Positions 17,205 to 55,651 of a stretch of DNA of 64,000 nucleotides are shown here, one piece after another. How positions within the stretch are numbered: the stretch's first letter is position 1; the number at the start of each line of letters is the position of its first letter. Below the pieces are notes generated by a model. That model was not told the DNA's origin and ran no database searches. It worked only from the letters and a program-made list of their open reading frames with translations. The position numbers and the translations under genes are program-made. This DNA comes from Selenomonadales bacterium (GTDB lineage: Bacteria > Bacillota > UBA994): contig JAGXRZ010000046.1 in assembly GCA_018335585.1 (NCBI GenBank), positions 11,832-75,831 on the forward strand, in the 5' to 3' direction.

Positions 17205-17579
17205 GTGAAGTCACAGGGAGGGTCTGCCATTAAGTCATGCGCTAAAGGCTATACGCTAGTTGAGCTGTTAATCGTAGTCAGCATAATCGCCGTCATTTCG
17301 GCCCTCGTGGTGCTGCGTATACTGCCCGCGGCTGCGGGTACCGGCGACGTGGGCGCCGGCCTGATGGAGCGAGCGGCGTGGGAAGCGGCCGCATGTAGAT
17401 TTAACCAGAACATTGTGCAGAATGCAACCGAGTACTTTGCCATTGTGTACGGGCATTACCCCGCGACACCGGCTGACTTGTTTCCGCGCTTTCTCGACCG
17501 CATCCCACGCTGCCCCGCCACCGGCGCGGAGTACCATTATGACGCGCATCACCTCGTAGTATGCCCTTATCACCCGTAA
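17205..17579 (+). CDS. Prepilin-type N-terminal cleavage/methylation domain protein (pseudopilin)
   Basis: KGYTLVELLIVVSIIAVISALVVL is a class-III signal peptide. The 3' 80 nt of the gene are duplicated at 30400-30480. Confidence 0.5.
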   Translation: MKSQGGSAIKSCAKGYTLVELLIVVSIIAVISALVVLRILPAAAGTGDVGAGLMERAAWEAAACRFNQNIVQNATEYFAIVYGHYPATPADLFPRFLDRIPRCPATGAEYHYDAHHLVVCPYHP

Positions 17580-18576
17580 GGGGATTATGGCGCGATAACA
17601 AGTAGGAACGCCAAGGGTTTTTAGCCCTTGGCGTTTTGTTGCCCTGCAGCAGAGCGTACGCCCTGCCTAGGAGGGAATATGCATCGCGCGTGGCACCTGT
17701 ATTCTGAAGAAGTTCCGCACCGAAGGCCAATACATCAGAGGCATCCTTAAGGCGTTCAAGATTACAAAATTCCCTAGCAAACGATTCTACCTGTGCCAGA
17801 GCAGCTTGGGGGTCGCGCAGGAGGCGGCACTTCTCTAGCGCCCATTGGCTTTTGAGTACATCCCATGTCTCCAGGCGGGCACCATCTGACTGTAACAGGT
17901 CGCCTAGCGTGGACTCAAGACACGCAGTGTCCTCTAGCGGAAGCACTTCCTTCGTGACCAGCAGCATTTCGCGATAGGCCTTGCATTTAGTGCTAATGGG
18001 CAATCCTGCAAGAGAAGAGACTTGTGCTAGCATCTGTTTAGCTTTTTCATATTCACCCATGCACACGCTACAAGCCATCGCGGCGATTAGCGCTTCGGCC
18101 TGCATCTCGAAAAAGTTGTGTTTTTCCGCCAACGCTACGGCTTTGCGCGAGAGGTTGAGCGCGGCTCGCCACTCGCCCTGACGAACTTTGCAGCTACATT
18201 CCCCTAACAAGGCACGCAGATTCGTCTCGGTTTCGTTGTCTTCTGAGCGCCCTAATCTCCGTCGGCATATCCTCGGTGCATGAACTCGTAACCATAGACA
18301 GGAGTTCTCGTGCCTCCGCGACCTTGCCTGTAGCCAGCAACCCTTTAGCTTGATTGAGAGTAGTTTCCACCCTTTGTCTAGCCTCGTCTATAGAATCGGG
18401 CAGGAAGTGGGACAGGGGTTCTCCTAGTCTCTCTGCTATTTGTCTCAGGTTTTCGGCTGATGGCTTTACTCTGCCGAGTTCTATAGCGGAATATAGGTGC
18501 GGGACGAAATGCCCTTGGCCAAGGTGGCCTGAGTCATGCCGCGCGCCTGCCGAGCTTCCCGAATACGTAAACCAAT
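17401..18576 (-). pseudogene. RNPP-type (HTH-XRE plus TPR) transcriptional regulator, disrupted by two frameshifts
   Basis: The HTH MIGLRIREARQARGMTQATLAKGISSRTYIPL* ends at 18481. A second frame reads ...LYSAIELGRVKPSAENLRQIAERLGEPLSHF...TEIRALRRQ...*. A third frame (ORF 17401..18210) reads MLGECSCKVRQGEW...EMQAEALIAAMACSVCMGEYEKAKQML, which are TPR-like helices. Confidence 0.5.
17610..17641 (+). terminator. Intrinsic terminator after the pilin gene
   Basis: GCCAAGGG-TTTTTAG-CCCTTGGC followed by GTTTTGTTG. The same hairpin recurs at 30514-30540 and, as a variant, at 6732-6754. Confidence 0.6.
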
Positions 18577-18840
18577 CATTGCCTCACCTCGTTGTGCCGT
18601 CTTCGCCCCGGTTCTCTTCGCCGTCAAAGGGCGCTTTCCCTGCACTTCTGCTGGAGATGCCCCTACTATTCCCGGAACAATGCCCGTCGTCGCGCCTGTA
18701 TTTCGTGCGCAAAGTCTCGCTGCAGGGCCATCTAACCCAGCTCTCTTTGGAAACACAGCCTCATTCTGAAGGTGGGATGGCAAGTCTGGAACTTGACGTA
18801 TGCGCATAAAATGCGTATTATTTGATTGTGAGGTGAGGAG

Positions 18841-24442: not shown

Positions 24443-24528
24443 TCCAAGGCGCAGTTCGTCTAAGGAGCCTAGGAGCATTGCTATTGCTGTGCCTTATCCT
24501 TCGTCTTGCGGCTCCCTCCTCGTTCGTG

Positions 24529-26166
24529 TTATCGTGGCAGCTCTTGCATTGACTTTACCTGTGACCAACTGCCGGAGGCACAAAGTTTTCCGTCGACGAT
24601 CAGCAGTACCTCGTCGAAGCTGTCTAGGTGGTCGGTCAAGTCATGAGTGACTTTAATGATGGTCTTATCGGTTAGGTTGCTTAGGTAGAGCTTCATTAAC
24701 TGAGCTACCTGCGAGTCCATGGCGGAAAGGGGTTCATCTAGCAGCAGTATGTCTTTGTCCGCGAGCATCATTCTAAACAGCCCGATAATCTGTTTTTCGC
24801 CGCCGCTCAGTAATCTGCAGTTTTCCTGCTTACTGATAGAGCTCAGTTTGGCGTCACCTATTAGACGAGAGAACACGGGCAGTGCTTTTTCATAAGGAAC
24901 GGTGTTAAACACGGTTATGTTTGAGAGGAAGTCCGACAGGAAAATGTGCTCGTGCTGATCTACGCACCACATTATAGGAGTGGCGTCTATGGCCTGCAGG
25001 TCTTTCCCGTCAATGTAAATCTTGCCGGCGTCTAAGTCTACATATTTCATCAAGGCACGCACTATGGTGGATTTGCCCGAACCGTTAGGCCCGATGATGG
25101 CGTACTTTTTACCTTTAAGGAACGTAAAACTAAAGTTTTCTAGGCTGAAGTCCTGGTACCGCACGGTTACACCCTGAAATACAATTGCTTTGTTAAACGC
25201 GGTAGCGACGGGCATATCGCTTTCAGGGTGCCAATCAAGCATGGCCAGCACCTTCTCTTTAATGCCTCTTGTCCCCCTAATTGTTGCCATGTCCGTGATG
25301 ATTGACTGGATCGGCGCGATGAAGCTCTCGATGAAGCCTAACGTAGCTGCGGCGGTTCCTAGCGTGATTTGCCCAATCAATAGAAACCACCCTACTAACG
25401 AGAAGGACACAATATTTAACAGGTACAAGAAGAATCCTCGCACTACGCCAAGCAGGCTCTTGATTTTCCCATACTGGTATCGTCGCTCGGCAGTTTTACC
25501 TAGAACTAGCTCGTGTTCGTGGAAGATACTACTCCTAGTGTCAGGCCTGATTAGCTTAAAGCCTTCCAACAAGTCCTTCATCTTGGCCATGTACTCGCCC
25601 CGGGTATCCAGATAGACTTTGTGGCGATGCGAAATCGTCTTGGCACCAATTGTAGGGACTAAAATGGCTGAGAAAAAGGACAATGCGATAATGACGATGC
25701 CAATTCTTAGGTCCACCAGGAGAAGCAATACTGCGCCAAACACCACAATGGAGTTGGCCATCTTAAAGATGTTTAGCAGAGGGTTCAGATAGTCCATTTC
25801 TAGTTGCGTTATCTCACTTGCCTGAATCGAGATGTACTCCCCTACATCTTTGGAGACAAACTTCTGGTACCTGTATCTGGCTATGGACTTGAAGAAGTCG
25901 CGCTTCATTGCTACTTCAAAGGCCACGCCGCCTTTCCAGCTGACAAGCATGTGCAGATACGTGGCCACCAAAGATACCAAGACACACAGGGCATACAGAG
26001 CAGCGAGCGTAACTAATAGCCGCAGACTCAGCTGATCAGCGGAATCAAACAACAGCTTGACGAGGTACGGCATAAAGGCCAGTGCGGCGCTAGAGATCAA
26101 GTCGAGCGCAATCTCTAACGCAATGTATTTTCTTATAGCTAAAAGGTACTTCTTCATTTTCCACAC
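24529..26166 (-). CDS. ABC exporter, fused permease/ATPase
   Basis: Six N-terminal TM helices, then GPNGSGKST, LSGGEKQ, LLLDEP. Roughly 45% GC versus about 60% in the flanks. Confidence 0.7.
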   Translation of the reverse strand: MWKMKKYLLAIRKYIALEIALDLISSAALAFMPYLVKLLFDSADQLSLRLLVTLAALYALCVLVSLVATYLHMLVSWKGGVAFEVAMKRDFFKSIARYRYQKFVSKDVGEYISIQASEITQLEMDYLNPLLNIFKMANSIVVFGAVLLLLVDLRIGIVIIALSFFSAILVPTIGAKTISHRHKVYLDTRGEYMAKMKDLLEGFKLIRPDTRSSIFHEHELVLGKTAERRYQYGKIKSLLGVVRGFFLYLLNIVSFSLVGWFLLIGQITLGTAAATLGFIESFIAPIQSIITDMATIRGTRGIKEKVLAMLDWHPESDMPVATAFNKAIVFQGVTVRYQDFSLENFSFTFLKGKKYAIIGPNGSGKSTIVRALMKYVDLDAGKIYIDGKDLQAIDATPIMWCVDQHEHIFLSDFLSNITVFNTVPYEKALPVFSRLIGDAKLSSISKQENCRLLSGGEKQIIGLFRMMLADKDILLLDEPLSAMDSQVAQLMKLYLSNLTDKTIIKVTHDLTDHLDSFDEVLLIVDGKLCASGSWSQVKSMQELPR

Positions 26167-26208
26167 TCACAAACTCATTCTACCCAGATTATAGCTCTGT
26201 TGGCAACA

Positions 26209-27321
26209 CTATCGCGTGACCTCACGCACTAAGAGGGCAGAGACGGCGGCAGCCGCCAATAGCCCTGCGCTTGCCAAAAAGGCGACCCTGATCCCGAGCG
26301 GAACCGTAATTACCCCTACAGCAAGAATGCTTAAGGGAGTGGCCAGTCGTGACAAAGCCGCATCTAACGCAAAGGCTTGGGCAGAAGAGCCGGGATCCGC
26401 ATGTTGCTGGATAATCGTCTCTGAAGCCATCGATGCTAACGCGTCATTCCCGCCGGAAAGAAAGAGGACAGCAGATGCCACCGAGGTGGAAATGACAAAT
26501 GTGCCCAAGAACAAGAAGGCTACTGCGTCCAGCATTAGCGCTAGGCCATACCCCAAAAAGGGCTTGATGCGACTCACGGGCAAAAGTAGCAAGGGGAGGC
26601 TCATGAGACCGCCTGTTCCGAGGGCGGAGAGCAGTGCCCCGTATGCCGCCTCACCCCCGAGAAGTACGTCATTGGCATACACAACCAAATGATGCAATAC
26701 CCCATATCCCAGACCGGACAGAAGTGCGGTGGTGAAATACCGACGTAGCTGTGGCTGGCGCAACGTCACGGCAATGCTTTCTCGCAGCGATATCCGCTTG
26801 GGGCTACTGCCCGCAGTGGTCACGCCATACTCTACTGCTCTCCCGAACACCGCTATGTACACCATAGTTCCCGCGCTAACTAGGAAGGTCAATCCATTAA
26901 CTAGCATGGAGGATTGAACCCCTATCGTCCTTAGAGTCATGGCCGCAACGAAGGGGCCAAGTGCCGTCAGACTATGGCCGAGAGCGGTTCTAAGGACATT
27001 TACTTCTATAAGTCGGTCACTTTCCACTAGCGTCGGGATGGCGCTGCGGTATGCAACGTTATATATGGCACTGACGCCAGAGAGAAAAACTGCGGCCACA
27101 AAGAGGATGGCCGCATTAGGCCTAAGGCTGACTGCGAACATACACAGTGCAGAGATTAAATCTAGGCAACCCATCAGCGCCCATCTGTTTGCCCGCTGAA
27201 TGTATGGAGCCACTGCCGGGCCAATGAACACGGTTGGAACCAGACGGGCGACGGCGAGCAACCCGATTAGCACCGCAGACTGTGATTCTGCATACACTGT
27301 TTGCCCGGCTGCAATCAGCAA
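26209..27321 (-). CDS. MFS transporter
   Basis: 370 aa, 10-12 TM helices, MFS-like loop motifs. TTG start as listed; the true start is uncertain. Confidence 0.55.
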   Translation of the reverse strand: MLIAAGQTVYAESQSAVLIGLLAVARLVPTVFIGPAVAPYIQRANRWALMGCLDLISALCMFAVSLRPNAAILFVAAVFLSGVSAIYNVAYRSAIPTLVESDRLIEVNVLRTALGHSLTALGPFVAAMTLRTIGVQSSMLVNGLTFLVSAGTMVYIAVFGRAVEYGVTTAGSSPKRISLRESIAVTLRQPQLRRYFTTALLSGLGYGVLHHLVVYANDVLLGGEAAYGALLSALGTGGLMSLPLLLLPVSRIKPFLGYGLALMLDAVAFLFLGTFVISTSVASAVLFLSGGNDALASMASETIIQQHADPGSSAQAFALDAALSRLATPLSILAVGVITVPLGIRVAFLASAGLLAAAAVSALLVREVTR

Positions 27322-27414
27322 TATCCACGAACCAAACAGTGCTATGGAATGCCCAATTATTGGGATTGTTACTCGATACAGGCTGACTCCCCCTTTGCAG
27401 CAAACTTTCCCGGC

Positions 27415-29229
27415 CTACGTCGGCAGATAGCTACTGGCTTGGCGCGTGAACATCGTATAATATACACCCCTTGCGGACATCAGCTCTGTGTGTGAGCCTT
27501 GCTCAACGATGCGGCCATGCTTAAGAACAAGTATCCTATCGGCGCTGCGTGCTAGGGGCATGCGGTGCGTCACTATCAGGGCCATCTTATCCCGGGCTAA
27601 GTGGCGTAGCGTCGCTAGCACTTCGTGTTCGCTTTGGGGGTCGATAGCTGCCGTTGGTTCATCTAGGATCATCAGTTGAGCTTTGGGCTGGCGAAGCAGC
27701 GCGCGTGCTAGGGCGAGGCGTTGCCACTGTCCGGAAGAAAGATCGGTGCCTCCCTCAAGTATTGTCCCAAGCGGCGTGTCGAGACTATCAGGAAGTGCTT
27801 CCACCAGTCTGTCCAGACCCACTTCTCCGGCCACAGCTAGTAGCGTGGCGTCATGGTGCATCTGCGATAGGTCGCCAAACCCAATATTTTCGCGCACTGT
27901 AACCGGGAAGTGCGCATAGTCCTGGCAGACCACCGCAATTCGTTTGCGTAGCTCACCGATGTCAAGTGAGCGAATGTTCTCGCCATCCCAAGTGATCTCA
28001 CCTTGGTTCGGGTCGTAGAGGCGACACAGCAGCTTGGTTAACGTCGTCTTCCCGGCGCCATTCTCGCCGACAAGCACTACTGTTTCCCCTGGGCTTATGG
28101 ACAGATTAATGTCTTCTAGAGCAGTCCGGTCGCTAGTAGGATAGCTAAATGAAACATGCGAAAAGCGAACGCCATATGCTTGAGATCCTGAGCTACCCTG
28201 CGGGACGGGCTCTCTAGCTAATGCGGATTCCATGTCCAGAACGTCAAATAAAGGGCCAGCACCTTGCGCTGCCTGATATAGATCCCCGCCCTCAAAGATC
28301 ATCAGCTCAAGACTTCGCCGCACTTGGAAAATTAGGCCCGCGAACAGAGCCAAATCGCCGAGGGTGTACGCGCCGCGAAGCGCTCCGTCAACAACGAAAA
28401 CATAAGGGATAGCTGCTCCAAGCGTGCCGACTACGGACCAGGCGACAAGCATCCATGTGCCGCGGGAACGTGCTGCCTTCATAGCCGAGAACATGGCACT
28501 AAAGCGCACGTTCCAGTGTCCAAGAAAGAAGGCGGGCAGATTAAACAGCCGCACCTCCTTAGCATAAATCTCGGTTAGGAGAATGCGCTCGTATAGCTTC
28601 ATATACCGCACATTCTCAGCTTGTGATTCCTCTACGTCCCAACTAAAATCCTCAACCCTTGATACAACGAATACCGTAGGCAACGCGGTAAGAAAGAGCA
28701 CAGGTGGCACCCACCAAGCGATGGTAGCCGTAAGCAGGAACGCGGGCACAAACGCAAAAAGGCCAATGAGCATACGTCCAATGGCAGTGACAAGTCGCCA
28801 AAGATGGTCTGCCCCTTTTTCCGCAAGCTGCAGTGTATTTAGGGCTTCTGGGTTCTCGAACATAGAAAGGTCGTCGAACCCGGCCACCTTAGCTAAGAGC
28901 TGTCGGCGGGCCTCCCCGCCGACGCGGTCACGAAAGTTGTCAATCTCTAGTCCGCGCACTGTCTCCACAGTGTCCATAATGAAGATACACGCGACAAACG
29001 CTAGTATGGCCTGCGGGAGGAGCGACCCTAAGTGGGCAAAAAGCCCCTGCCTACCCGCCAACTGCGTTACTTCGTCGATTACTATTTTGCTTGTGTAAAG
29101 TATTATTATGGGGGTAACGCCCAATAGCAGATTAAGTACTAACAGAAGCCGAACTTCACCCGGGGCGGCACGACACCCCAGCAACAACGCCCGCTTAATG
29201 GTCTTTATTTTTTGCTTTAAGAGGACCAC
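27415..29229 (-). CDS. ABC exporter, fused permease/ATPase
   Basis: 604 aa. GENGAGKTT Walker A; LSSGQWQRLALARAL signature; LMILDEPTAAID Walker B. Confidence 0.75.
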   Translation of the reverse strand: MVLLKQKIKTIKRALLLGCRAAPGEVRLLLVLNLLLGVTPIIILYTSKIVIDEVTQLAGRQGLFAHLGSLLPQAILAFVACIFIMDTVETVRGLEIDNFRDRVGGEARRQLLAKVAGFDDLSMFENPEALNTLQLAEKGADHLWRLVTAIGRMLIGLFAFVPAFLLTATIAWWVPPVLFLTALPTVFVVSRVEDFSWDVEESQAENVRYMKLYERILLTEIYAKEVRLFNLPAFFLGHWNVRFSAMFSAMKAARSRGTWMLVAWSVVGTLGAAIPYVFVVDGALRGAYTLGDLALFAGLIFQVRRSLELMIFEGGDLYQAAQGAGPLFDVLDMESALAREPVPQGSSGSQAYGVRFSHVSFSYPTSDRTALEDINLSISPGETVVLVGENGAGKTTLTKLLCRLYDPNQGEITWDGENIRSLDIGELRKRIAVVCQDYAHFPVTVRENIGFGDLSQMHHDATLLAVAGEVGLDRLVEALPDSLDTPLGTILEGGTDLSSGQWQRLALARALLRQPKAQLMILDEPTAAIDPQSEHEVLATLRHLARDKMALIVTHRMPLARSADRILVLKHGRIVEQGSHTELMSARGVYYTMFTRQASSYLPT

Positions 29230-29789
29230 AGTGCCACTCTCCCACGTCTACCTACCTGGCAAAACCGCCATTCTGGTTACAACTAAGTGAAAAGCCAGAA
29301 GCCAGGGATCAAGACATTGAGGCACGTGATCCCCTGTGATGACCTGTAATCGACGGAGTAATAAATGCAAGGAGTGCCTTCCTTTCAGCTGCAACAAAGC
29401 AATCGTAAGTTGACCGAGGATTGCCGTGACGCATAGCCGAAACTGCTATTCGGATAACTGCAGCTATTGATGAGGTTGGCGCACCGGGGTGCAGCGCGTA
29501 TGTATGAGCGGCCAGTCGGTGACTGATACGGGGGGGGCAGTATCCCACCGCTTTCAAGATTCCTCGTGAAACAATAAGACTAAGAAACGCGGCCGATAAT
29601 CGTAGACTCGCGACCATGCCAACCTCACTTCTTTGGCTTACGGGGGGGAGGAGGGTCGTACTACGGATTTCACAAAAACACTTCCAATCCAGTTATTCCA
29701 TCATGCCATATTATTGTTATATTGGCAACAGTATCACATGCCAATGATAGTGTCGCGCGACACTAAAAGGCCCCTCCTTAAGGAGAGGC

Positions 29790-30251
29790 TTATACGTAGG
29801 ATGCACACCTACTGCTGATTGTGTTTGCCCTGCAGCAGAGCGTACGCCCTGCCGCACAGTAATGTCGTCCGCCGCAAAGGCAAACCAGTTGCTCGGGTAC
29901 TTCATAAAGCACCTTGCCCTTCTTTAGGATTTCTTCCTGAAAAAACAAACTGTCCTTTGCAAGCTCAAGCTCTTCCGGCGTATAAACCAAAATATCTGCC
30001 CCTCTTCTGGACATGACGAGCAAGCCGACCTCTTTCAACCTCTCATAAAATCCCTTTTGAGAATTCTTTATGACTATCAGGTCAATGTCGCTGTATTCAT
30101 GGATATTGCCGGTGGCAAGAGAACCAAATAGCACGATCTTTAACGGGTCATACTCCTTGATCAAAACCGATACTATTCTTGCCAATTCCCTTTCCAAAAC
30201 TAACTTTCTGGCTGCGATTTTGTCCTCATATTGGGATTGATGAAGAGCCAC
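29790..30251 (-). CDS. Minimal nucleotidyltransferase (MNT/Pol-beta superfamily) domain protein; the C-terminus probably runs past the true stop into a repeat
   Basis: LFGSLATGNIHEYSDIDLIVI is the GS...D.D NTase motif. No HEPN partner found nearby. Confidence 0.45.
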   Translation of the reverse strand: MALHQSQYEDKIAARKLVLERELARIVSVLIKEYDPLKIVLFGSLATGNIHEYSDIDLIVIKNSQKGFYERLKEVGLLVMSRRGADILVYTPEELELAKDSLFFQEEILKKGKVLYEVPEQLVCLCGGRHYCAAGRTLCCRANTISSRCASYV

Positions 30252-30689
30252 TATGTTATCTTCCTCCCCAAACAGCGCATCATGCCACTATGATACAAAA
30301 GCACCCTTAAATAGTCAAACGAGTGAGTAAGCCGCGCATGTCAGGGGCTGCTCGGGTAACGAAAGAAGGCCCAACAGTCGCGCTTTGGTTCATGGCGTGA
30401 GGCGGCTGCATCCCACGCTGCCCCGCCACCGGCGCGGAGTACCATTATGACGCACATCACCTCGTAGTATGCCCTTATCACCCGCAAGGGGCTTACGACG
30501 CGATAAAAACTAGTAACGCCAAGGGTTTTAAGCCCTTGGCATTTTGTTGCCCTGCAGCAGAGCGTACGCCCTGCCTAGGAGGGAATATGCATCGCGCGTG
30601 GCACCTGTATTCTGAAGAAGTTCCGCACCGAAGGCCAATGATTCTACCTGTGCCAGAGCAGCTTGGGGGTCGCACTGGAGATGGCCCTA

Positions 30690-32225
30690 CTATTCCCGGA
30701 ACAATGCCCGTCGGCGCGCCTGTATTTCGTGCGCAAAGTCTCGCTGCAGGTTTACATGAGTGGCCAAGAACTCCTGCCACCCCTGATTCTCGTCCAGGGA
30801 CTCCTCTTGCGTGATTTGAGCCAGTATCGCAGCTTTTTCGGCAGTTGTTTGCCCGAACGCGTCAGCTAACTTGCGCGCTAGAGTCTCGATGCGCAGGTTC
30901 TTATCTTCCGCACTCCAAGCCACCCAGATGTCTTGCATCTTTACTTCGCGTCTAAAACCCTCGCGGAAGCGTTCCTTCCAGCTGCTATATGCGGGTGCCA
31001 CTGCGTAGGCATCCCAAAACTGCTCAAGACGGTCAACATAGGCTCTTCGTATCGCTAAGTAACGGCTGTGCTGGGCGGGTGTCCATGCATGGAAGGGGTG
31101 ATGAATGTAAGGGTCGTGCAGTGAGAGGAAGCCGCCTACACCGCCTCTGCTGTATGCCTGCAACCAACTTCTACCCGCTGTCCAATGGCCAAAGATTTTT
31201 AGGGCATCCGCTTCCAAAAGGTCTAGCCGTTCCTGCGTCAAAATCTCTCCAGGTAACAAGCTTGCGCCAACACCACCGGCAGGCAAGATATGCATGGTTA
31301 CGCCAATCCTGCGGACTTCAATATCGTGCCCTATGTAGAAGTAGTCGACGGTCACAAAGGAACTTGTGTTGCGTGGGCGAGGGATGGCCTGTAGTACACT
31401 GCGCGGTACATGCCCCTGCACTCGCCGCACCAAATCGGACGTCCACACATCAAGGCCACCCGCCAGACGGTCGAGCGCAGTGTCTTTAGCGAGATGCTTC
31501 GGATAGTAGACCATTACTTCAGCCCATTCGCCTTGCATGGCTAGAACCCGTACATTCTCTCCCGTGCCCAGCTCGCCAAGAGCTTCGCCCGCTCTGCTCG
31601 GAGTGCGGTAAAGCGGGGTATCTTCTAACAAGTAGGCGATGTCGCGACCGTCGTTACGTCCCCACACTGGCAGACGAAGGGGTTTGTCTAGTCCCTCAGC
31701 CTGTGTAACTAGGGCTTGTGGAGAGGGCCAACTAGTAGAGAGCCAAACGAAATTATCGTTCTGCAGGCGTGAGCCGTCTACGGCGCGCAGTTCAGCCGGC
31801 AAGACCACGGTGACGAGAAAATTCGGCAAGCTACTCCCAGCGACATGATGCAATGACAGTGTTTTACCTTCAATGCGGTAGTAGAAATACTTCTGCTTTG
31901 GGGTTGCCACAGAAGGATACGCTACCACTGCCGATCCTCCGCTGAACAACAAAATTTCACAGCTGTTGTTTGGGTCTAACTCTTTGTTGAAAGTAAAGGT
32001 GATGGCGATGTCTTCGCTTGGCTGGAGCAAGTTGCGATGGAGGACTTCGACTCCCTCTGGTACTTCCACTATACCGTACCCCGAAATCTCTAACCTTGTG
32101 ACGGCGAGCCCCTTTTGGGAGGGCGCCTGTCGGCACCCTCCCGCAACGAGCGCTGCTACTGCGACGATTGTTACGATGAAAAGAACACCAAATCTCTTAG
32201 TTAAGGCCATTCTATTCGCCCCCAA
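30690..32225 (-). CDS. Lipoprotein with an SH3b-like domain, function unknown
   Basis: Lipobox-like VAGGC. TPLYRTPSRAGEALGELGTGENVRVLAMQGEWAEV resembles SH3b. The last ~30 codons lie inside the duplicated segment. Confidence 0.4.
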   Translation of the reverse strand: MGANRMALTKRFGVLFIVTIVAVAALVAGGCRQAPSQKGLAVTRLEISGYGIVEVPEGVEVLHRNLLQPSEDIAITFTFNKELDPNNSCEILLFSGGSAVVAYPSVATPKQKYFYYRIEGKTLSLHHVAGSSLPNFLVTVVLPAELRAVDGSRLQNDNFVWLSTSWPSPQALVTQAEGLDKPLRLPVWGRNDGRDIAYLLEDTPLYRTPSRAGEALGELGTGENVRVLAMQGEWAEVMVYYPKHLAKDTALDRLAGGLDVWTSDLVRRVQGHVPRSVLQAIPRPRNTSSFVTVDYFYIGHDIEVRRIGVTMHILPAGGVGASLLPGEILTQERLDLLEADALKIFGHWTAGRSWLQAYSRGGVGGFLSLHDPYIHHPFHAWTPAQHSRYLAIRRAYVDRLEQFWDAYAVAPAYSSWKERFREGFRREVKMQDIWVAWSAEDKNLRIETLARKLADAFGQTTAEKAAILAQITQEESLDENQGWQEFLATHVNLQRDFAHEIQARRRALFRE

Positions 32226-32377
32226 TAGTTCTATTCTTCGCGCTTAATGGACAGCAGGCTTAGTGTTATCGTGGCAAAGTCTTGCATTGACTTTACCTGT
32301 GACCAGGTTCCGGAGGCATAATTAACGCCGCTCCAAAAGCTAGGGCATCATCGGCCTGCAGCCCTTGCGCTAGCTAG

Positions 32378-32890
32378 CTAAGGGGTCCCGCCATATAGGG
32401 TAGTCATCTGCTGTTTGAACCACTCCACCGCTTCCTTAAAGATGATATTCATCTCTCTATTGCTGGTGTTGAGACCAGCATGCATGCCGTAGTCGGTTGG
32501 CACCCAACCAGTGCTGACCTTAAATCCGTAGACAACTAGGCGTGCGCCGCTACTTGCCGTGCCCAATGCTATCGCAAACACTTCTGGGGGCTCTCCTAGC
32601 TCCTTTTTCGCTTTATCTAGGATCTCTTGCTGTAATCTGCCTACTTCCTCGTCACTTATGCCGGACTGAGTATGGCGCAGCATCAAGGCAATGCGGCCTG
32701 ATCTGAGAGTGTATCTGTCGCCGCCTCCCGTCACTGTCACAAGGGAAGAAGTTCCTTCCCAAGCTCGGACCAAGTCATTGATCTTTGCGGAAACTGAACT
32801 GTCGATCCCACCTCTCATGGCGCCGACACCTAGACGATTAACTGCGATGAAGGAAATCAGTAGCACTGCCAAAATGGCCCCTAGTCCCAA
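32378..32890 (-). CDS. Hypothetical membrane-anchored protein (170 aa)
   Basis: One N-terminal TM helix. No recognisable motif. Confidence 0.3.
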   Translation of the reverse strand: MGLGAILAVLLISFIAVNRLGVGAMRGGIDSSVSAKINDLVRAWEGTSSLVTVTGGGDRYTLRSGRIALMLRHTQSGISDEEVGRLQQEILDKAKKELGEPPEVFAIALGTASSGARLVVYGFKVSTGWVPTDYGMHAGLNTSNREMNIIFKEAVEWFKQQMTTLYGGTP

Positions 32891-32984
32891 TAGGGACAGC
32901 CTTACATTCCATCGCCGCGCTGAATACGTTTCTATTATTGTCGCCTCCTCCTAATGTCGTATAAGCAGTATGAGCATTACGAGC

Positions 32985-34292
32985 CTACCTAGCGTCAAGC
33001 CGCAAGGGAACGGACACAGTGTTCGGGTTATCGCCCTCTACTGGAGAATACGCATAAACAGCTAGAACCAACTCCGAGCCGTCCGCCACGTGTGTCGGCA
33101 CTTCTATGTCAAAGGTGAAATACAACCAATACGTTGCTCCTACTAGATGCTCCTCCGTTAGCACCGGGTTCCTGGTAAAACCAGGAGCAGTATGTCCGGC
33201 CATTAAGCTTCCTCCGTCCAAAGAATTGCGACCAACCTCACCCAACCCATAGAAAATGGTAGCTTCAAAGGTATTGGCAACTCCAGATACGGTGAATCTA
33301 CGACCTACCGCCTCAGTCGGGGCCGGCGCAAAGAGCTTTATTGACCGGGAGTGAGCAACAATATCCGGAAGAAAATGGATTCCGACAATAGTTCCGATAA
33401 AAATTTCTTCATCGGCTCGGGTGATGGGCACAAACCTGACCGGTAGTCCCGTTGCCTTGATGTAAACCACATCATAAAGGGCAGCTGGCGATAGTTGCTC
33501 CGCTGGCGAAGGCTTGGAGAAGCTAGCTCGAACCACTACTTCTTCTGCCATAACAAGCACATCAACTATTCGTACCACGCGCTCGAACGGCTCGGGGCCA
33601 TCTCGACTACTAATTCCACTCCTAACAAAAAGATATTGCTTGCCATCAAATTCCTTAGTATTAGCAAAATCGGTCATATCAAACTTTAGGGAACTCTTAA
33701 CCCAGTTCCGGACCTCTTCTGGGGTTGCGGCAGCTGAGTGCACTGTAACCGGCCAAAAGCTCACCTTTCTGCCGGTGATAATCTCAATCCGAAGAGGATC
33801 GGCGTAGATCCGTAGGGGGTCAGCAAGGTTTTTATCTAGTCTAAGCTCAGCCCAGAATACCAGCCTGTATCTGCCCGGCTGGTCTAAGGCGAAGGAGTAG
33901 TGTCCAAACCACGACTCTTGATGATTAACCTCGCCCGGCCTAAAATTCCAGTCGTCCAGTCGCAATTTAAGACTCTGCGAAACAACCATTCTGTTTTCCT
34001 CATCGTAAACCCTAAAGAACAGAGCCGGATCAACACCCCGCAAAGTTAACGGTTCAGCACTGAAGTTCATATTGTTTAGAGTTACACTTCCCCGGATTCT
34101 CTCGCCAACATGGTAGTGGGTCTTTAATAGCTCCCCCACTAATTCTAGCTTCTCCGCTTCAACAGCAGCTTCCTGTTGGTCAGTCGCATCTACAGCCGGT
34201 ACGGTTCGCTGTACTAATGCGATCCCGGCAATGGTGATTAGCGACAGTAGCGCAAGAAGCAGGATCGCCGAAAGCAGCACCGCGTTCCTCAT
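32985..34292 (-). CDS. Membrane-anchored protein with a C-terminal Gmad2-type Ig-like domain
   Basis: N-terminal TM helix. The C-terminal ...FEATIFYGL...WLYFTFDIEV...LAVYAYSPVEGDN resembles the Gmad2/GerMN fold. Confidence 0.4.
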   Translation of the reverse strand: MRNAVLLSAILLLALLSLITIAGIALVQRTVPAVDATDQQEAAVEAEKLELVGELLKTHYHVGERIRGSVTLNNMNFSAEPLTLRGVDPALFFRVYDEENRMVVSQSLKLRLDDWNFRPGEVNHQESWFGHYSFALDQPGRYRLVFWAELRLDKNLADPLRIYADPLRIEIITGRKVSFWPVTVHSAAATPEEVRNWVKSSLKFDMTDFANTKEFDGKQYLFVRSGISSRDGPEPFERVVRIVDVLVMAEEVVVRASFSKPSPAEQLSPAALYDVVYIKATGLPVRFVPITRADEEIFIGTIVGIHFLPDIVAHSRSIKLFAPAPTEAVGRRFTVSGVANTFEATIFYGLGEVGRNSLDGGSLMAGHTAPGFTRNPVLTEEHLVGATYWLYFTFDIEVPTHVADGSELVLAVYAYSPVEGDNPNTVSVPLRLDAR

Positions 34293-34499
34293 GAGGCCAC
34301 CTCCAAAATGCCGTTAATTCATTCTACCCAGATTATAGCTCTGTTGGCAACACTATCACGTGCCAATGATAGTGTCGCGTGACACTAAAAGGCCTCTCCA
34401 TCCTGCCTATCATCTCAGGCATCCCCATAATCCGAGGGAATTGGCCTCATCTCAGTTGCTTTGGATTTTGCGGTGACGTATACTGAGTGTATCAACTAA

Positions 34500-34700
34500 A
34501 TACGCTGTGGGGTGCCCCTAGCTGTAGGGGTTAAAAGGGAATCAGGTGAGAATCCTGAGCGGTCCCGCCACTGTAACGGGTAGTGCCTATACTTAACCAC
34601 TGTTCGCGCGCGAATGGGAAGGAACTAGGCGCGTCACTCCCGTAGTCAGGAAACCTGCCCCAGAGCCAAGACTCCGTCCTTCGGTCGAAAGGACTAGGTC
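34500..34700 (+). ncRNA. Cobalamin (B12) riboswitch
   Basis: AAAGGGAATCAGGTGAGAATCCTGAGCGGTCCCGCCACTGTAACGG matches the conserved cobalamin-riboswitch core. It lies 5' of btuF. Confidence 0.7.
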
Positions 34701-34853: not shown

Positions 34854-35753
34854 ATGAAACGCATTGCTGTATTGTCGCTCGTACTCGTTCTCGCTGTGGC
34901 CTTATCCGGTTGCGCCGTACTTAACGTACTGCGGCCGAGCATTGTCGTAACGGATGACCTAGACCGCGAAGTACGCCTAGAGCGCGCGGCGCAGCGCATT
35001 GTCTCACTTGCCCCGAGTAACACGGAAATGCTCTTTGCCTTAGGCCTAGCAGAAGAAACCGTCGGTGTGTCCGAGCTCTGCGACTACCCACCGCAAGCTG
35101 CCACGAAGGAACGCGTCGGCTCATTTGCCACCCCTTCCATCGAAAAAATAGTTAGCCTCAAACCCGACCTCGTCTTAGCCGCCAGCCTACACAAAACTGT
35201 CGGCGAGCAATTAGTTGAGCTAGGGATTCCGGTAATTGTCCTGCATCCCGAAAGCATTCAGGGAGTGCTAGATAACGCCGACCTCCTCGGGCGGGTCACC
35301 GGTCAGGCGCGCGGCGCGGCGGAGCTTAAGCGGCAAATCACGGCGGAGCTCAATGCCGTTGACGAGCGCGTCAAAACACTAACACAGGCACAGCGGCCGC
35401 TAGTGTACTACGAGGTATGGTCTAACCCCATCATGACGGCCGGGCCCAACACGTTTATCAATGAACTTATTACCCGCGCGGGCGGCGTGAACTTAGGGGC
35501 GACCGCAACGACTGCCTGGCCGACGCTCTCGCTGGAGGAGCTTTTGTCTAGGCAGCCACAGGTCATGTTCTACGGCCATGCCACCGAGACGGTAGAGCAA
35601 GTCAGGCAGCGCGCCGATTGGGGCAGCATCCCTGCCCTGCGTGACGGACGGGTGTACCTGGTAGACGAAAACCTTATCCTGCGGGCCGGGCCCCGCATCG
35701 GGCAAGCGCTGCGGCTTCTCTCCACCCAGTTACACCCCGACCTATGGCGGTGA
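34854..35753 (+). CDS. btuF: Cobalamin/siderophore-type periplasmic binding lipoprotein (BtuF-like)
   Basis: Lipobox LSGCAV. PBP family 8 fold; IVSLAPSNTEMLFALGL. Confidence 0.7.
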   Translation: MKRIAVLSLVLVLAVALSGCAVLNVLRPSIVVTDDLDREVRLERAAQRIVSLAPSNTEMLFALGLAEETVGVSELCDYPPQAATKERVGSFATPSIEKIVSLKPDLVLAASLHKTVGEQLVELGIPVIVLHPESIQGVLDNADLLGRVTGQARGAAELKRQITAELNAVDERVKTLTQAQRPLVYYEVWSNPIMTAGPNTFINELITRAGGVNLGATATTAWPTLSLEELLSRQPQVMFYGHATETVEQVRQRADWGSIPALRDGRVYLVDENLILRAGPRIGQALRLLSTQLHPDLWR

Positions 35754-36781
35754 ACAAATTAGCCGCCATGCGCGCGTGGTCGGCTAACGCCCTCTTAGGC
35801 ATCGTCTTAGCCCTAAGCATAGTCCTAAGCCTCGTGGTGGGGGCGGTCGACATCGCTCCCACCCGCCTGTTGGCGGCTTTGCAGGAATTAGTGACTGCAC
35901 CTGCGAACACTTGGTCAGTAGATGCTGTGATAGCCTGGCGACTGAGATTGCCACGCGCTCTTCTAGCGGCGGCTGTAGGCGCCTCCTTGGCGACGGCAGG
36001 TGCCATTATGCAGGGCCTCTTGCACAACAGCTTGGCCGACTCCTTTGTGCTTGGTGTATCCTCGGGCGCAAGCCTTGGCGCGGCGATTGCCCTGTTACTT
36101 GGCCTAAACTTTGCCTTCTTTGGCCTCGGAGCTGTAACTCCGCTGGCGTTTGGGGGGGCAATGCTCGCGCTCTTAGCTGTGCTCATCATCTCGCGGCGAG
36201 TGGCCGGCCAATCGACTTTAGGTTTGCTCTTGGCAGGCATCGCGATGAATAGCGCGCTTTCTGCGGTGGTGTCGTTCCTAGTGCTGCTAAGCCGCGAGCG
36301 AATCAACCCCCTGCTCTTCTGGCTGATGGGAGGGTTCGCCGGACGCGGCTGGAGTCACCTCGTCCTGATGCTCCCCTACTTACTTGTCGGCTTGGCAATC
36401 GCCTACGCCTACCACCGCCACCTCACCGCCATCAGTCTCGGTGATGCGACTGCGCACCATTTAGGGGTAGATGTAAGCCGTGTGCGCCTCTTGCTTTTGG
36501 GGACGGCAGCGTTACTTACGGCGGCAGCCGTATCAGTAAGCGGCATGATTGGCTTTGTAGGCTTGATGACACCGCATTTCGCGCGCATGCTTGTCGGGCA
36601 TCACTACCGTCGCCTTTTACCCACTGCGGCCTTATGCGGGGCAATTTTCCTGACTTGCGCCGATCTCTTGGCACGCGTTGCTATGCGCCCGCAGGAACTC
36701 CCGGTCGGGATTATAACTGCTTTGTGCGGCGGGCCGTTTTTCCTCTGGCTCTTGTCGCGCCAACGGCGGGAGGTGGCCTAA
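35744..36781 (+). CDS. btuC: FecCD-family ABC permease (BtuC-like)
   Basis: 345 aa, 9-10 TM helices, FecCD signature region. Confidence 0.75.
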   Translation: MAVNKLAAMRAWSANALLGIVLALSIVLSLVVGAVDIAPTRLLAALQELVTAPANTWSVDAVIAWRLRLPRALLAAAVGASLATAGAIMQGLLHNSLADSFVLGVSSGASLGAAIALLLGLNFAFFGLGAVTPLAFGGAMLALLAVLIISRRVAGQSTLGLLLAGIAMNSALSAVVSFLVLLSRERINPLLFWLMGGFAGRGWSHLVLMLPYLLVGLAIAYAYHRHLTAISLGDATAHHLGVDVSRVRLLLLGTAALLTAAAVSVSGMIGFVGLMTPHFARMLVGHHYRRLLPTAALCGAIFLTCADLLARVAMRPQELPVGIITALCGGPFFLWLLSRQRREVA

Positions 36782-37566
36782 TGCCTGCCATTAGTGTCGA
36801 GAAGGTTTCCTATCGTTTTGGGCAGCCGGTACTCCGTGAAGTCTCGGCGAGTTTTAGTCAAGGCACTTTTACGGGGATTCTGGGCGCTAACGGTGTGGGC
36901 AAGTCAACCCTAGTCAAGCTTATCAGCCGGTGGCTGCCCCTGCAGGAAGGGTCAATCCGCATCTACGACCGCCCACTCCAAGCGTTCACACAGCGTGAAT
37001 TGGCCCGCCATATCGCTGTCGTGGCGCAAGAACAGGCGGAGCTTACGGAACTTACGGTGCGGGAAATGGTGGAACTAGGCCGCATCCCACACCAAGGGCT
37101 ACTAGACTCCCCTTCTCAGGCTGACCACAACGCGGTGGAATCCGCACTAGCACAGACAGGGCTACAGGCACTGGCCACGCGGCGCTTCGGCACGCTGAGC
37201 GGCGGAGAGCGACAACGCGTAAGGGTTGCTATGGCCCTAGCGCAAGCGGCCGACATTTTAATCCTCGATGAGCCTACCACACACCTTGACATCAGGTACC
37301 AACTAGAACTCCTGACACTGCTCGCCGAACTCGTCGCCAAGGGCTACACGGTAATTGCGGTGCTACACGACATTAACTTAGCGGCACTTTTTTGCGACCA
37401 CCTGCTGCTTCTCGCTGACGGTCGAGTGCTTAGCGCCGGAACCCCGGCTGAGGTTATTACGCGTGAGGCCATCTTAGAGGCATACCAGTGCGATGTCACT
37501 GTGCTCCTACACCCTACGTCCGAGGCACCACAGATTGCGCTGCGGCGAAGTTACCAGGATGCTTAG
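36781..37566 (+). CDS. btuD: ABC ATP-binding protein (BtuD/FepC-like)
   Basis: GANGVGKST; LSGGERQRV; ILILDEPTTHLD. Start at Met 36781 (MPAISVEKVSY). Confidence 0.75.
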   Translation: MPAISVEKVSYRFGQPVLREVSASFSQGTFTGILGANGVGKSTLVKLISRWLPLQEGSIRIYDRPLQAFTQRELARHIAVVAQEQAELTELTVREMVELGRIPHQGLLDSPSQADHNAVESALAQTGLQALATRRFGTLSGGERQRVRVAMALAQAADILILDEPTTHLDIRYQLELLTLLAELVAKGYTVIAVLHDINLAALFCDHLLLLADGRVLSAGTPAEVITREAILEAYQCDVTVLLHPTSEAPQIALRRSYQDA

Positions 37567-49599: not shown

Positions 49600-49810
49600 G
49601 GTGAGCGGTGGGCGGTGAGGCGCGAGCCGCCAGGAAATTGTCGCTTGTGGCTTGTCGCTTGTGGCTTGGGGAGAGGCTTTAGGCTTGAGGCTTGAGGCGT
49701 TAGAAGAACGGGCTTTGAGCTTTGAGAGCACGCTCTGTCTCCACGAAGTGCGAAGTGCGAAGTGCGAAGTGCCCGTCCTCTGCGGAGCACGAAGCACGCT
49801 CTCTCTACCA
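49600..49810. repeat. Modular heptamer-array intergenic element
   Basis: GTCGCTTGTGGCTTGTCGCTTGTGGCTTG, then TTTAGGCTTGAGGCTTGAGGCGTTAG, then TTTGAGCTTTGAGAGC, then CGAAGTGCGAAGTGCGAAGTGCGAAGTG. Confidence 0.75.
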
Positions 49811-53059: not shown

Positions 53060-53072
53060 GTGGGACCTCCTT

Positions 53073-53245: not shown

Positions 53246-53248
53246 CCC

Positions 53249-53623: not shown

Positions 53624-53711
53624 GTTCGTCTCCCCTTTCCATCATCTTCTCTAAGCTTAGCATACCAGAGGGCGTAAGGCTGTGCAACGCGCCGCGCAAG
53701 GCGCGAGGAGA

Positions 53712-55649: not shown

Positions 55650-55651
55650 GT

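What the first reader, a model, noticed from the sequence alone, without database searches (positions are those of the whole stretch)
34318..34400. Nested-palindrome operator/promoter cassette copied in front of three minus-strand operons (exporters and secreted proteins)
A ~60-nt segment, CATTCTACCCAGATTATAGCTCTGTTGGCAACACTATC..., precedes the start codons of the Gmad2-protein operon (34318-34400) and the 545-aa ABC exporter (26167-26230). A related copy lies at 29712-29780 upstream of the ABC/MFS exporter block.

Two copies carry a compound palindrome: TTGGCA/TGCCAA embracing ACACTATCA-N8-TGATAGTGT, followed by GTGTC-gcgt-GACAC. Read on the coding strand this overlaps a TTGCCA...TATAAT promoter-like pair.

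The shared cassette implies that one DNA-binding regulator co-controls two ABC exporters, an MFS pump and an operon of three exported or membrane proteins (32985-34292, 32378-32890, 30690-32225). This could be an uncharacterised envelope or secretion module whose regulator is not in the window.
Basis: seen in the sequence. Interest (0 to 1): 0.6.

Follow-up and report, generated by a model that had tools for sequence, protein, structure and literature searches.

The report
Orphaned peptide-pheromone promoter copied three times
The repeated segment is the promoter, plus a probable regulator-binding box, that in related bacteria drives the small secreted signalling peptide of a peptide quorum-sensing system; in this genome three copies sit in front of exporter and secreted-protein genes, while the local sensor and peptide genes have decayed.

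Summary
Three copies exist: 34317-34399, 29695-29777 and a truncated one at 26172-26240. They far exceed chance.

Comparison with related metagenome loci shows what the cassette is. In at least eight related contigs an about 425-aa HTH+TPR regulator, whose best solved-structure matches are PlcR, Rap and NprR, ends in a terminator. A near-invariant 34-nt core follows directly: TAGTGTCGCGCGACACTATCATTGGCACGTGATA. Next come a -35/-10 promoter, a GGAGG ribosome-binding site and a 47-56-aa secreted propeptide with a conserved DPPxP C-terminus. This is the signature of RRNPP-type peptide quorum sensing.

The core is 91-100% identical between loci whose regulator genes are only 68-89% identical. None of the inverted repeats shows a compensatory change, so the constraint is on sequence, not on a hairpin.

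The window holds only wreckage of the circuit:
- the regulator gene is deleted next to copy 3;
- a regulator pseudogene lies at 17623-18579, with remnants at 30403-30750 and 29809-29853;
- the propeptide gene behind copy 2 has a 116-nt deletion.

The palindrome geometry, the promoter pairing and "regulator not in window" need correction. This is a new member of a known kind. Regulator binding is inferred, not shown.

The parts
34317..34399 (-). Cassette copy 3, complete. It sits at the ancestral position of the propeptide promoter and drives the Gmad2 operon.
   Evidence: It is 84% identical to the L102 propeptide promoter and 92% identical to that of L105.
34354..34387 (-). Conserved 34-nt core, TAGTGTCACGCGACACTATCATTGGCACGTGATA. 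It contains an 18-bp palindrome at 34370-34387 and the TATCA-N8-TGATA box at 34354-34371. This is the putative regulator-binding region.
   Evidence: 31 of 49 columns are invariant in 13 distinct copies. The core is 91-100% identical where regulator CDS are 68-89% identical. The box form is kept in distant relatives.
34321..34350 (-). Promoter P2: -35 TTGCCA (34345-34350), 18-nt spacer, -10 TAGAAT (34321-34326). An alternative -10, TATAAT, lies at 34332-34337 (P1).
   Evidence: The TTG of the -35 and the A2/T6 of the -10 are kept at 17-18 nt spacing in all close copies, including L111, where a 1-nt deletion destroys TATAAT.
34298..34304 (-). Ribosome-binding site GGAGGTG. It is shared with the propeptide genes of relatives. 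The ATG is at 34290-34292.
34394..34442 (.). Deletion scar. The about 1.4 kb holding the regulator gene in the syntenic relative L102 is missing here, and only the 3' half of its terminator remains.
   Evidence: L102 2793-5895 matches window 37541-34442 at 96.6%. Homology resumes at L102 7325, which corresponds to window 34394.
29695..29777 (-). Cassette copy 2, complete. Core at 29732-29765, -35 TTGCCA at 29723-29728, -10 CATGAT at 29700-29705.
   Evidence: It is near-identical to the L085 copy, which drives an intact propeptide.
29770..29789 (-). Intrinsic terminator hairpin plus T-tract of the former regulator gene, directly upstream of copy 2.
   Evidence: The same stem at the same position, with a different sequence, is seen in all relatives.
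29625..29673 (-). Propeptide pseudogene. It has a 116-nt internal deletion and a weakened ribosome-binding site (GGAAG).
   Evidence: Alignment to the intact 54-aa ORF of L085. No intact propeptide was found in the window.
29809..29853 (-). Remnant of the regulator C-terminus (..GRAYALLQGKHNQQ*), overlapped by the 3' end of the MNT nucleotidyltransferase ORF.
   Evidence: Repeat D14. The same C-terminus lies directly before the cassette in L079, L101 and L105.
30403..30750 (-). Internally deleted regulator paralogue. It keeps the upstream region plus codons about 365-428 and a downstream hairpin module.
   Evidence: 95-97% to 17500-17834 and 18651-18726. tblastn of P0001 residues 365-428 matches 30671-30531.
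17623..18579 (-). HTH-TPR regulator pseudogene. It has a frameshift and lacks about 323 nt (residues about 120-189) relative to intact P0001.
26172..26240 (-). Cassette copy 1, truncated. P2 is intact (-35 at 26201-26206, -10 at 26177-26182), but only the promoter-proximal half-site remains. It drives ABC545.
   Evidence: The MFS stop codon lies at 26209-26211, inside it.
30690..34292 (-). Operon behind copy 3: a 435-aa Gmad2-domain protein, a 170-aa protein and a 511-aa protein. All have N-terminal hydrophobic segments.
   Evidence: A homologue of the 170-aa gene is also cassette-driven in L108.
26209..29229 (-). ABC exporter (604 aa) and MFS transporter, downstream of copy 2 and the propeptide remnant.
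   Evidence: No terminator was predicted between the cassette and the ABC start.
24529..26166 (-). ABC exporter (545 aa) behind copy 1.
32260..32321 (-). Relic of the C-terminal coding end of an ABC545-like gene, downstream of the 170-aa gene.
   Evidence: 87% identical to 24523-24583.

Best explanation
The cassette is the pheromone-gene promoter module of an RRNPP-like peptide quorum-sensing system of a thermophilic Bacillota lineage.

Native arrangement, shown in relatives: an about 425-aa cytoplasmic receptor (XRE-type HTH plus TPR superhelix) ends in an intrinsic terminator. A 34-nt conserved region follows, then a sigma-A-type promoter, a strong ribosome-binding site and a 47-56-aa propeptide. 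The propeptide has a signal-peptide-like N-terminus and a conserved (P)Q(Y/W)DPPxP C-terminus.

Inferred mechanism, by analogy with PlcR/PapR, NprR/NprX and ComR/ComS:
1. The propeptide is exported and trimmed.
2. Its C-terminal peptide is re-imported and binds the TPR domain.
3. The receptor dimer binds the box (TATCA-N8-TGATA, plus in this subfamily the adjoining palindrome TAGTGTCGCGCGACACTA). It most probably activates the promoter, giving positive feedback, and also activates the genes placed behind copies of the module.

In this window the module exists three times, in front of a Gmad2/secreted-protein operon, an ABC+MFS exporter block and a second ABC exporter. The copies arose by duplication or recombination of blocks that carried the receptor's 3' end, terminator, box, promoter and ribosome-binding site.

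The local receptor genes and the propeptide gene are dead. The three promoters are therefore orphans. They are silent, constitutive from the good TTGCCA-18-TAGAAT promoter, or served by a paralogous receptor elsewhere in the genome.
For: Architecture:
- Regulator, terminator, cassette and small ORF are found in that order in L101, L102-104, L105, L108 and L111-114. With a variant box the same order is found in L106 and L107. L110 has the variant box after its regulator but no propeptide ORF was identified there.
- L102 is syntenic with the window. The btuF operon is 96.6% identical and the pilin/CCA flank 94.4%. It carries an intact regulator and propeptide where the window has copy 3.

Regulator:
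- Pfam HTH_3 at 3e-14, with weak TPR_MalT.
- AlphaFold model with pLDDT 90, all helical repeats.
- The best Foldseek PDB match is the PlcR-PapR-DNA complex. Rap and NprR follow, interleaved with generic TPR proteins.
- A profile against PDB sequences hits the PlcR HTH at 5e-8 and RapJ at 2e-3.
- The hosts are Bacillota.

Propeptides:
- Eight sequences, each with 2 K/R in the first 4 residues and a 15-aa hydrophobic window of KD 2.0-3.1. D-P-P-x-P is invariant.
- The five-criterion RRNPP signature comes from PMC10075063.

Footprint:
- The 34-nt core is 91-100% identical. Regulator CDS are 68-89% identical and the stop-to-core spacer 50-82%.
- 31 of 49 columns are invariant in 13 copies.
- Regulators at 40-44% identity keep [TG]AT[CA]A-N8-TGA[TC]A 15 nt upstream of a -10 hexamer. 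Their recognition helix differs in parallel: SRTYISAIELGR versus SRSYITALENGR.
- A loose box pattern hits cassette positions almost exclusively in about 130 kb of related DNA.

Varied cargo behind the cassette: S8 proteases, radical-SAM RiPP genes with ABC exporters, an M10-like protease, and a homologue of the window's 170-aa gene.
Against: - No binding, transcription or peptide data exist. The link between box and regulator rests on adjacency, conservation and a two-point co-variation.
- The window itself has no intact regulator or propeptide, so the circuit cannot work from local parts.
- The regulator genes carry no box upstream of themselves.
- The TPR assignment is below Pfam gathering thresholds, and generic TPR proteins score nearly as well as RRNPP proteins in Foldseek.
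- Two candidate promoters (P1, P2) place the box at about -37 or about -48, so activation versus repression is undecided.
- Copy 1 lacks half of the box.
- SignalP could not be run.
- The small ORF could instead be a RiPP precursor in some loci (L105, L106).
Confidence: 0.72

Rival explanations
1. The conserved core is the operator of a different, unlinked transcription factor, such as a global or TetR/MarR-type repressor. The neighbouring HTH-TPR gene is only a frequent neighbour.
For: - The regulator is missing or dead next to all three window copies, yet the core is still intact.
- The best-conserved part is an 18-bp perfect palindrome typical of many repressor operators.
- The P2 promoter looks self-sufficient, with 10 of 12 consensus positions.
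Against: - In every relative with enough sequence the cassette follows the regulator's stop codon or a remnant of it.
- The box form changes together with the regulator subfamily.
- No other regulator gene recurs near the copies.
Confidence: 0.1
2. The copies are merely edges of segmental duplications and recombination in a plastic genomic island. They provide a plain constitutive promoter, and the palindromes have no regulatory role.
For: - Both flanks of the ABC545 unit are duplicated around the Gmad2/170-aa unit.
- The copies carry regulator 3' ends, a terminator, the 5'UTR and the ribosome-binding site.
- The island differs completely between near-identical strains and contains IS elements.
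Against: - The core is far better conserved (91-100%) than the flanking intergenic DNA (50-82%) or the regulator CDS (68-89%) across lineages.
- The box form and its spacing to the -10 persist in regulators of only 40-44% identity.
Confidence: 0.1
3. The inverted repeats act as a nucleic-acid structure. This could be an RNA element or attenuator between the regulator and propeptide genes, or a cruciform or recombination site.
For: - Three mutually overlapping inverted repeats could form alternative hairpins.
- Single-strand DNA folding gives z = -2.3 and -2.6 for copies 3 and 2.
Against: - There are zero compensatory changes in any of the three repeats. Every departure breaks pairing: 1, 6 and 19 cells.
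- TTGGCA/TGCCAA becomes TTGACA/TGACAA in L085b. These therefore behave as directly repeated -35-like hexamers, not as a stem.
- No U-tract follows any hairpin.
- There is no Rfam match.
- The elements lie upstream of the conserved -10.
Confidence: 0.04
4. The cassette is a small mobile element, MITE-like or integron-cassette-like, that spreads an outward-facing promoter.
For: - There are multiple copies in one island.
- It lies in front of unrelated genes in different genomes. L085 holds two copies back to back.
- Short-read assemblies break at it.
Against: - It has no terminal inverted repeats or target-site duplications at consistent ends, and copy boundaries differ between copies.
- It is always oriented towards a gene and always preceded by regulator-derived sequence.
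- Collection scans found only 4 related loci in metagenome contigs and none in 185,579 species genomes.
Confidence: 0.04

Closest known systems
PlcR-PapR of the Bacillus cereus group (RRNPP family): the PlcR box TATGNAN4TNCATA upstream of papR and of a regulon of secreted proteins. The box sequence is quoted from my own knowledge.
   Same: - HTH+TPR receptor, and the best structural match (3u3w).
- The receptor gene is followed by a small Sec-type propeptide gene.
- An A/T-rich inverted-repeat box is copied in front of genes for secreted proteins, proteases and transporters.
- Positive feedback on the propeptide gene is inferred here.
   Different: - The receptor is about 140 aa longer, with more TPR helices.
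- Sequence similarity is limited to the HTH.
- The box is TATCA-N8-TGATA plus an extra 18-bp palindrome.
- There is no box upstream of the receptor gene.
- The pheromone C-terminus is proline-rich (DPPxP).
- The host is a deep-branching thermophilic Bacillota lineage, not Bacillales.
NprR-NprX (Bacillus) and other about 420-aa HTH-TPR RRNPP receptors
   Same: - Similar length (about 425 aa).
- HTH plus a long TPR array. The NprR apo structure 5dbk gives the highest TM-scores (0.57/0.67).
- The propeptide gene lies immediately downstream.
   Different: No significant sequence match. No NCBIfam family reaches its cut-off. The targets and the box differ.
Rgg/SHP and ComR/ComS systems of streptococci, which control radical-SAM RiPP (RaS-RiPP) operons (review PMC13361665)
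   Same: - In relatives L105, L106 and L111 the regulator-propeptide pair is followed by radical-SAM enzymes, Cys-rich precursor peptides and ABC exporters.
- The inverted-repeat box lies next to or over the -35 region.
   Different: The propeptides here have Sec-type signal sequences rather than short hydrophobic leaderless peptides. The receptor is not a member of the Rgg family.
Candidate RRNPP systems predicted by RRNPP_detector (PMC10075063)
   Same: The same five-criterion signature is met: small secreted propeptide, 250-500-aa TPR receptor, adjacency.
   Different: This particular family was not found in the literature searched. Here the cis-element and its duplication and decay history are also defined.

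Membership tests
RRNPP-type quorum-sensing system (signature of PMC10075063) | Receptor of about 250-500 aa | tested here: met
   Intact family members are 396-428 aa. In the window only a pseudogene and remnants exist.
RRNPP-type quorum-sensing system (signature of PMC10075063) | Receptor carries peptide-binding TPRs | tested here: met
   TPR_MalT at E = 2e-5, below the gathering score. The AlphaFold model is 22 helices in repeat pairs, pLDDT 90. Foldseek top hits are PlcR, Rap and NprR, but generic TPR proteins score similarly.
RRNPP-type quorum-sensing system (signature of PMC10075063) | Small propeptide (10-100 aa) encoded directly next to the receptor | tested here: met
   ORFs of 47-56 aa lie 90-150 nt after the receptor stop, behind a GGAGG site, in L102, L105, L108, L111, L114, L106 and L107. 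In the window the ORF is reduced to 49 nt.
RRNPP-type quorum-sensing system (signature of PMC10075063) | Propeptide secreted by the Sec pathway (SignalP) | tested here: inconclusive
   SignalP is not available. As a proxy, there are 2 K/R in the first four residues and a 15-aa hydrophobic window of KD 2.0-3.1 in all eight peptides.
RRNPP-type quorum-sensing system (signature of PMC10075063) | Mature peptide binds the receptor and changes its activity | not testable with these tools
   Needs biochemistry or genetics.
One of the seven characterised RRNPPA subfamilies (Rgg, ComR, PrgX, AimR, NprR, PlcR, Rap; PMC9765709) | Full-length sequence homology to a subfamily profile | tested here: not met
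   No NCBIfam model reaches its cut-off. PDB sequence hits to PlcR and ComR cover only the HTH, and RapJ reaches E = 2e-3. The tight family has about 30 representatives at E <= 1e-30 among 1.84 billion.
Sigma-70/sigma-A-type promoter | -35 and -10 hexamers at 16-18 nt spacing, conserved among copies | tested here: met
   TTGCCA-18-TAGAAT matches 10 of 12 positions. The TTG and the A2/T6 positions are kept at 17-18 nt spacing in all close copies. The transcription start is not testable.
   No such gene accompanies the cassette in 15 related loci. The associated regulator is XRE-HTH+TPR and has no box upstream.
Cis-regulatory RNA / attenuator | Conserved base pairing with compensatory changes, or a match to a known RNA family | tested here: not met
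   0 compensatory changes. There is no Rfam hit at gathering score or at E <= 1, apart from a chance 0.53 hit.
MITE / mobile promoter element | Defined ends with terminal inverted repeats and target-site duplication | tested here: not met
   Copy boundaries differ and coincide with regulator-derived sequence.

The most novel reading that the evidence does not exclude
This is an undescribed RRNPP-like receptor/pheromone subfamily of deep-branching thermophilic Bacillota, with a proline-rich DPPxP signal. Its 'terminator-box-promoter-RBS' module behaves as a portable plug. The module is repeatedly duplicated together with the receptor's 3' end and so recruits new secreted-protein, exporter and RiPP genes into the regulon. 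The target promoters outlive the receptor. The resulting orphan regulon may be run in trans by a paralogous receptor (cross-talk or eavesdropping) or may have become constitutive.
Probability: 0.35. Interest if true: 0.55.

Novelty: new member of a known kind. Interest (0 to 1): 0.42.

Why it matters
The analysis turns an anonymous repeat into a testable regulon. It names a candidate receptor, a candidate pheromone motif and a 34-nt target site for a peptide-signalling system in an uncultured thermophilic Bacillota lineage. That lineage lies outside the Bacillales and Lactobacillales, where all characterised RRNPP subfamilies sit.

It also shows one way such regulons can grow and decay. Blocks carrying the pheromone promoter are duplicated in front of new cargo, and the receptor can then be lost while the promoters persist.

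In relatives the same module controls radical-SAM and YcaO peptide clusters and S8 proteases. This could guide natural-product mining. The finding is not a new principle.

Tried and rejected
1. Genome-contig scan with GATANTGTTGCCAANNNNNNNATAAT gave 34 hits. All were single chance matches in unrelated taxa, so the source species is not represented.

2. Metagenome scan with the palindrome gave 59 loci. Only L079, L082, L085 and L099 were related. The source contig itself is not in that collection, so the regulon size in the source genome could not be measured.

3. Sigma-54 reading of TGGCAC...TTGC was rejected, because the spacing is 9 nt rather than 5 (read directly from the sequence).

4. An H-type pseudoknot from the interleaved repeats was rejected on steric grounds, with zero-length loops (inference), and for lack of covariation.

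5. A terminator/antiterminator reading was rejected, because no U-tract follows any alternative hairpin.

6. Homology of the 435-aa Gmad2 protein to the first cassette-driven gene of L108 was not found. Only the 170-aa gene is shared.

7. The ABC545 and ABC604 exporters are only generically similar to the exporters of L105 and L106.

8. A box upstream of the regulator genes (autoregulation) was not found.

10. A literature search found no description of this subfamily.

Full report
**1. Observation**

- The repeat finder reports 26172-26218, 29694-29740 and 34316-34362 as one family. The 26-kb and 34-kb copies are 96% identical.
- It reports 29695-29777 and 34317-34399 as an 83% pair.
- A self-blastn gives E = 4e-18 and 3e-14.
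- The motif ACACTATCA-N8-TGATAGTGT with up to 3 mismatches occurs only at 34350-34375 and 29728-29753. Shuffles gave none.

The description needs several corrections.
- TGCCAA lies inside the 8-nt spacer, so the repeats interleave rather than nest.
- TTGCCA and TATAAT are 7 nt apart and are not a promoter pair. The consensus scan instead finds TTGCCA-18-TAGAAT and GTGATA-16-TATAAT.
- With gaps allowed, the 26-kb copy aligns out to about 26240. It has lost 19 nt, which is one arm of the palindromes. The stop codon of the upstream MFS gene lies inside it.

**2. Surroundings**

On the minus strand the copies precede three gene sets:
- a 435-aa Gmad2-domain protein, a 170-aa protein and a 511-aa protein;
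- a 604-aa ABC exporter and an MFS transporter;
- a 545-aa ABC exporter.

A cobalamin riboswitch (109 bits) and a btuF-type operon diverge from the 34-kb copy.

The region is full of other repeats.
- 30403-30750 matches 17495-17834 plus 18651-18726.
- A 29-mer occurs three times.
- 32260-32321 matches the last 60 nt of the ABC545 gene.
- Both flanks of the ABC545 unit are therefore duplicated around the Gmad2/170-aa unit.

**3. Source and relatives**

The 435-aa protein is found on metagenome contigs only. Identical neighbouring proteins are labelled 'Selenomonadales bacterium' and 'Thermaerobacter sp.' MAGs, which places the source in Bacillota.

A scan of species genomes returned only chance hits. 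A metagenome scan for the palindrome returned four related loci among 59.

These relatives supplied two leads.
- In L079 and L085 the cassette is followed, after a GGAGG site, by a 54-aa ORF. It has a signal-peptide-like start and ends in FVPQYDPPPPRK(L/P)KK.
- Directly upstream lies the C-terminus of a protein ending ..RAYALL(Q/H)G...

**4. The regulator**

Joining the L085 and window fragments gave a 427-aa protein with HTH_3 (3e-14) and weak TPR matches. A database search found a small family of intact 396-428-aa proteins. One of them is 99% identical to the reconstruction.

Their contigs show a constant order: regulator, stop codon, terminator hairpin with T-tract, TAGTGTCGCGCGACACTATCATTGGCACGTGATA, -35/-10 promoter, GGAGGTGA, small ORF.

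L102 is syntenic with the window. Its btuF operon is 96.6% identical and its pilin/CCA-enzyme flank 94.4%. Between these flanks L102 holds only the intact regulator, a 56-aa propeptide and S8 proteases. The window instead holds a 17-kb mosaic.

Relative to L102, the regulator gene is missing between window positions 34442 and 34394. Only the 3' half of its terminator remains in front of copy 3.

The other regulator-derived sequences in the window are:
- a frameshifted, internally deleted pseudogene at 17623-18579;
- a remnant of codons about 365-428 at 30531-30671;
- a C-terminal stub at 29809-29853.

The propeptide gene behind copy 2 carries a clean 116-nt deletion and a weakened ribosome-binding site.

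**5. Is the core functional?**

Among loci with intact regulators, four regions differ in pairwise identity:

| Region | Identity |
|---|---|
| 34-nt core | 91-100% |
| Regulator CDS | 68-89% |
| Stop-to-core spacer | 50-82% |
| Promoter stretch | 63-87% |

In 13 distinct copies, 31 of 49 columns are invariant. Almost all invariant columns lie in the first 34.

Regulators of only 40-44% identity (L106, L107, L110) lack the 18-bp palindrome. They keep [TG]AT[CA]A-N8-TGA[TC]A 15 nt upstream of a TATAAT/TACAAT/TAGAAT hexamer. L106 and L107 also have propeptides ending in PQYDPPEP.. and LQWDPPKPE; no propeptide ORF was identified in L110. The recognition helix changes in parallel, SRTYISAIELGR versus SRSYITALENGR.

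None of the three inverted repeats shows a compensatory change, and every departure breaks pairing. In L085b TTGGCA/TGCCAA becomes TTGACA/TGACAA. These elements therefore behave as -35-like hexamers, not as a stem. No Rfam family matches. The constraint is thus on the DNA sequence, as expected for a protein-binding site.

**6. Which promoter?**

In all close copies TTG.. lies 17-18 nt upstream of a hexamer with A at position 2 and T at position 6 (TAGAAT, GATAAT, GATGAT, CATGAT or TAAAAT). This holds even in L111, where a 1-nt deletion ruins TATAAT. I therefore favour P2.
- With P2 the box is centred near -48 and the 18-bp palindrome near -64.
- In the distant relatives the box overlaps a TTGTGA -35, which corresponds to P1 and a centre near -37.

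The difference is about one helical turn. That fits an activator acting from one face of the helix, but this step is inference.

**7. Comparison with known systems**

The AlphaFold model (pLDDT 90) is an HTH followed by about 9 helical repeat pairs. Its best PDB match is PlcR-PapR-DNA. Rap and NprR follow, interleaved with generic TPR proteins. A sequence profile hits the PlcR HTH (5e-8) and RapJ (2e-3).

The five-criterion RRNPP signature (PMC10075063) is met in the relatives. The one exception is that Sec export could be judged only by composition.

The protein belongs to none of the curated families. It also lies outside the seven characterised subfamilies, which are found in Bacillales and Lactobacillales (PMC9765709). 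The tight family has about 30 representatives at E <= 1e-30 among 1.84 billion. I found no paper describing it.

**8. How the copies arose**

Cassettes are preceded by regulator-derived sequence wherever the flanks can be read. L108 has two copies with identical terminators.
- The first follows the intact regulator and drives a 363-aa gene and a homologue of the window's 170-aa gene.
- The second follows a 56-aa remnant of a regulator C-terminus and drives the propeptide and an S8 protease.

L085 has two copies back to back. The unit that duplicates is therefore regulator 3' end, terminator, box, promoter and ribosome-binding site. This could come from tandem paralogous modules that then decay, or from block duplication. 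It does not look like a transposable element.

**9. Verdict**

The cassette is the pheromone-gene promoter and probable receptor box of an RRNPP-like system. It is present three times in an island where the cognate receptor and pheromone genes have decayed.

Shown:
- the repeats;
- the architecture in relatives;
- the conservation pattern;
- the fold prediction;
- the pseudogenisation.

Inferred:
- receptor binding to the box;
- the direction of control;
- peptide maturation;
- whether the three window operons are still regulated.

The finding is a well-supported new member of a known kind and of moderate interest.

Noticed in passing
window 34493-34676 (+): Cobalamin riboswitch (Rfam RF00174, 109 bits). 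It diverges from cassette copy 3 and leads a btuF / FecCD / ABC ATPase operon at 34854-37566.
   Followed up: partly
window 9137-9253, 49600-49780, 53060-53990, 55650-55900, 61987-62136: Arrays of tandem heptamers (AGTGCTC/AGTGCCT, GGCTTTA/GCTTGTC and related). They occur in both orientations at several intergenic sites. L079 7700-8100 has similar arrays. Their function is unknown.
   Followed up: no
window 6726-6769, 17595-17638, 30503-30546: A 44-nt module with a perfect hairpin, AACGCCAAGGG-loop-CCCTTGGCGTT. It looks like a bidirectional terminator and occurs three times, once beside a tRNA gene. It also occurs in L100, L101 and L102.
   Followed up: partly
L105 6073-10472; L106 1900-6491; L111 14626-15191; L114 7190-8482: In relatives the regulator-propeptide pair is followed by radical-SAM enzymes, Cys-rich precursor peptides (for example ..GVGSWFNPSNGLCPGWTSCGCCNGRS, twice in L106), a CPBP protease, ABC exporters or a YcaO protein. 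These look like quorum-sensing-linked RiPP clusters.
   Followed up: partly
window 29790-30251 (-): An MNT-type nucleotidyltransferase (Polbeta/NTP_transf_2) sits inside the remnant of a regulator gene. Its 3' end runs over regulator-derived sequence. No HEPN partner was seen.
   Followed up: no
window 21246-22853 (-); L082 1640-; L079 5763-; L108 997-1707: IS elements populate this island and its relatives: a 535-aa DDE transposase in the window, and IS21-like and DDE_Tnp_1 elements in related loci. In L082 an IS interrupts the propeptide gene.
   Followed up: partly
window 32260-32321: A relic of the last about 20 codons of an ABC545-like exporter lies between the 170-aa and 511-aa genes. 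An exporter gene was apparently replaced or deleted there.
   Followed up: partly
window 23486-24442 (+); L085 4072-5007; L100 2068-3042: A conserved 311-324-aa secreted protein of unknown function. In L085 and L100 it is driven by a variant cassette (TTGACA type). In the window it has no cassette.
   Followed up: partly
window 6772-9720 (-): A cluster of eight tRNA genes.
   Followed up: no
L004-L006 (Logan contigs): Short-read assemblies of the same gene start exactly 56 nt upstream of the ATG, inside the cassette. This is consistent with the repeat breaking assemblies. These strains carry a 146-aa second gene in place of the 170-aa one.
   Followed up: no
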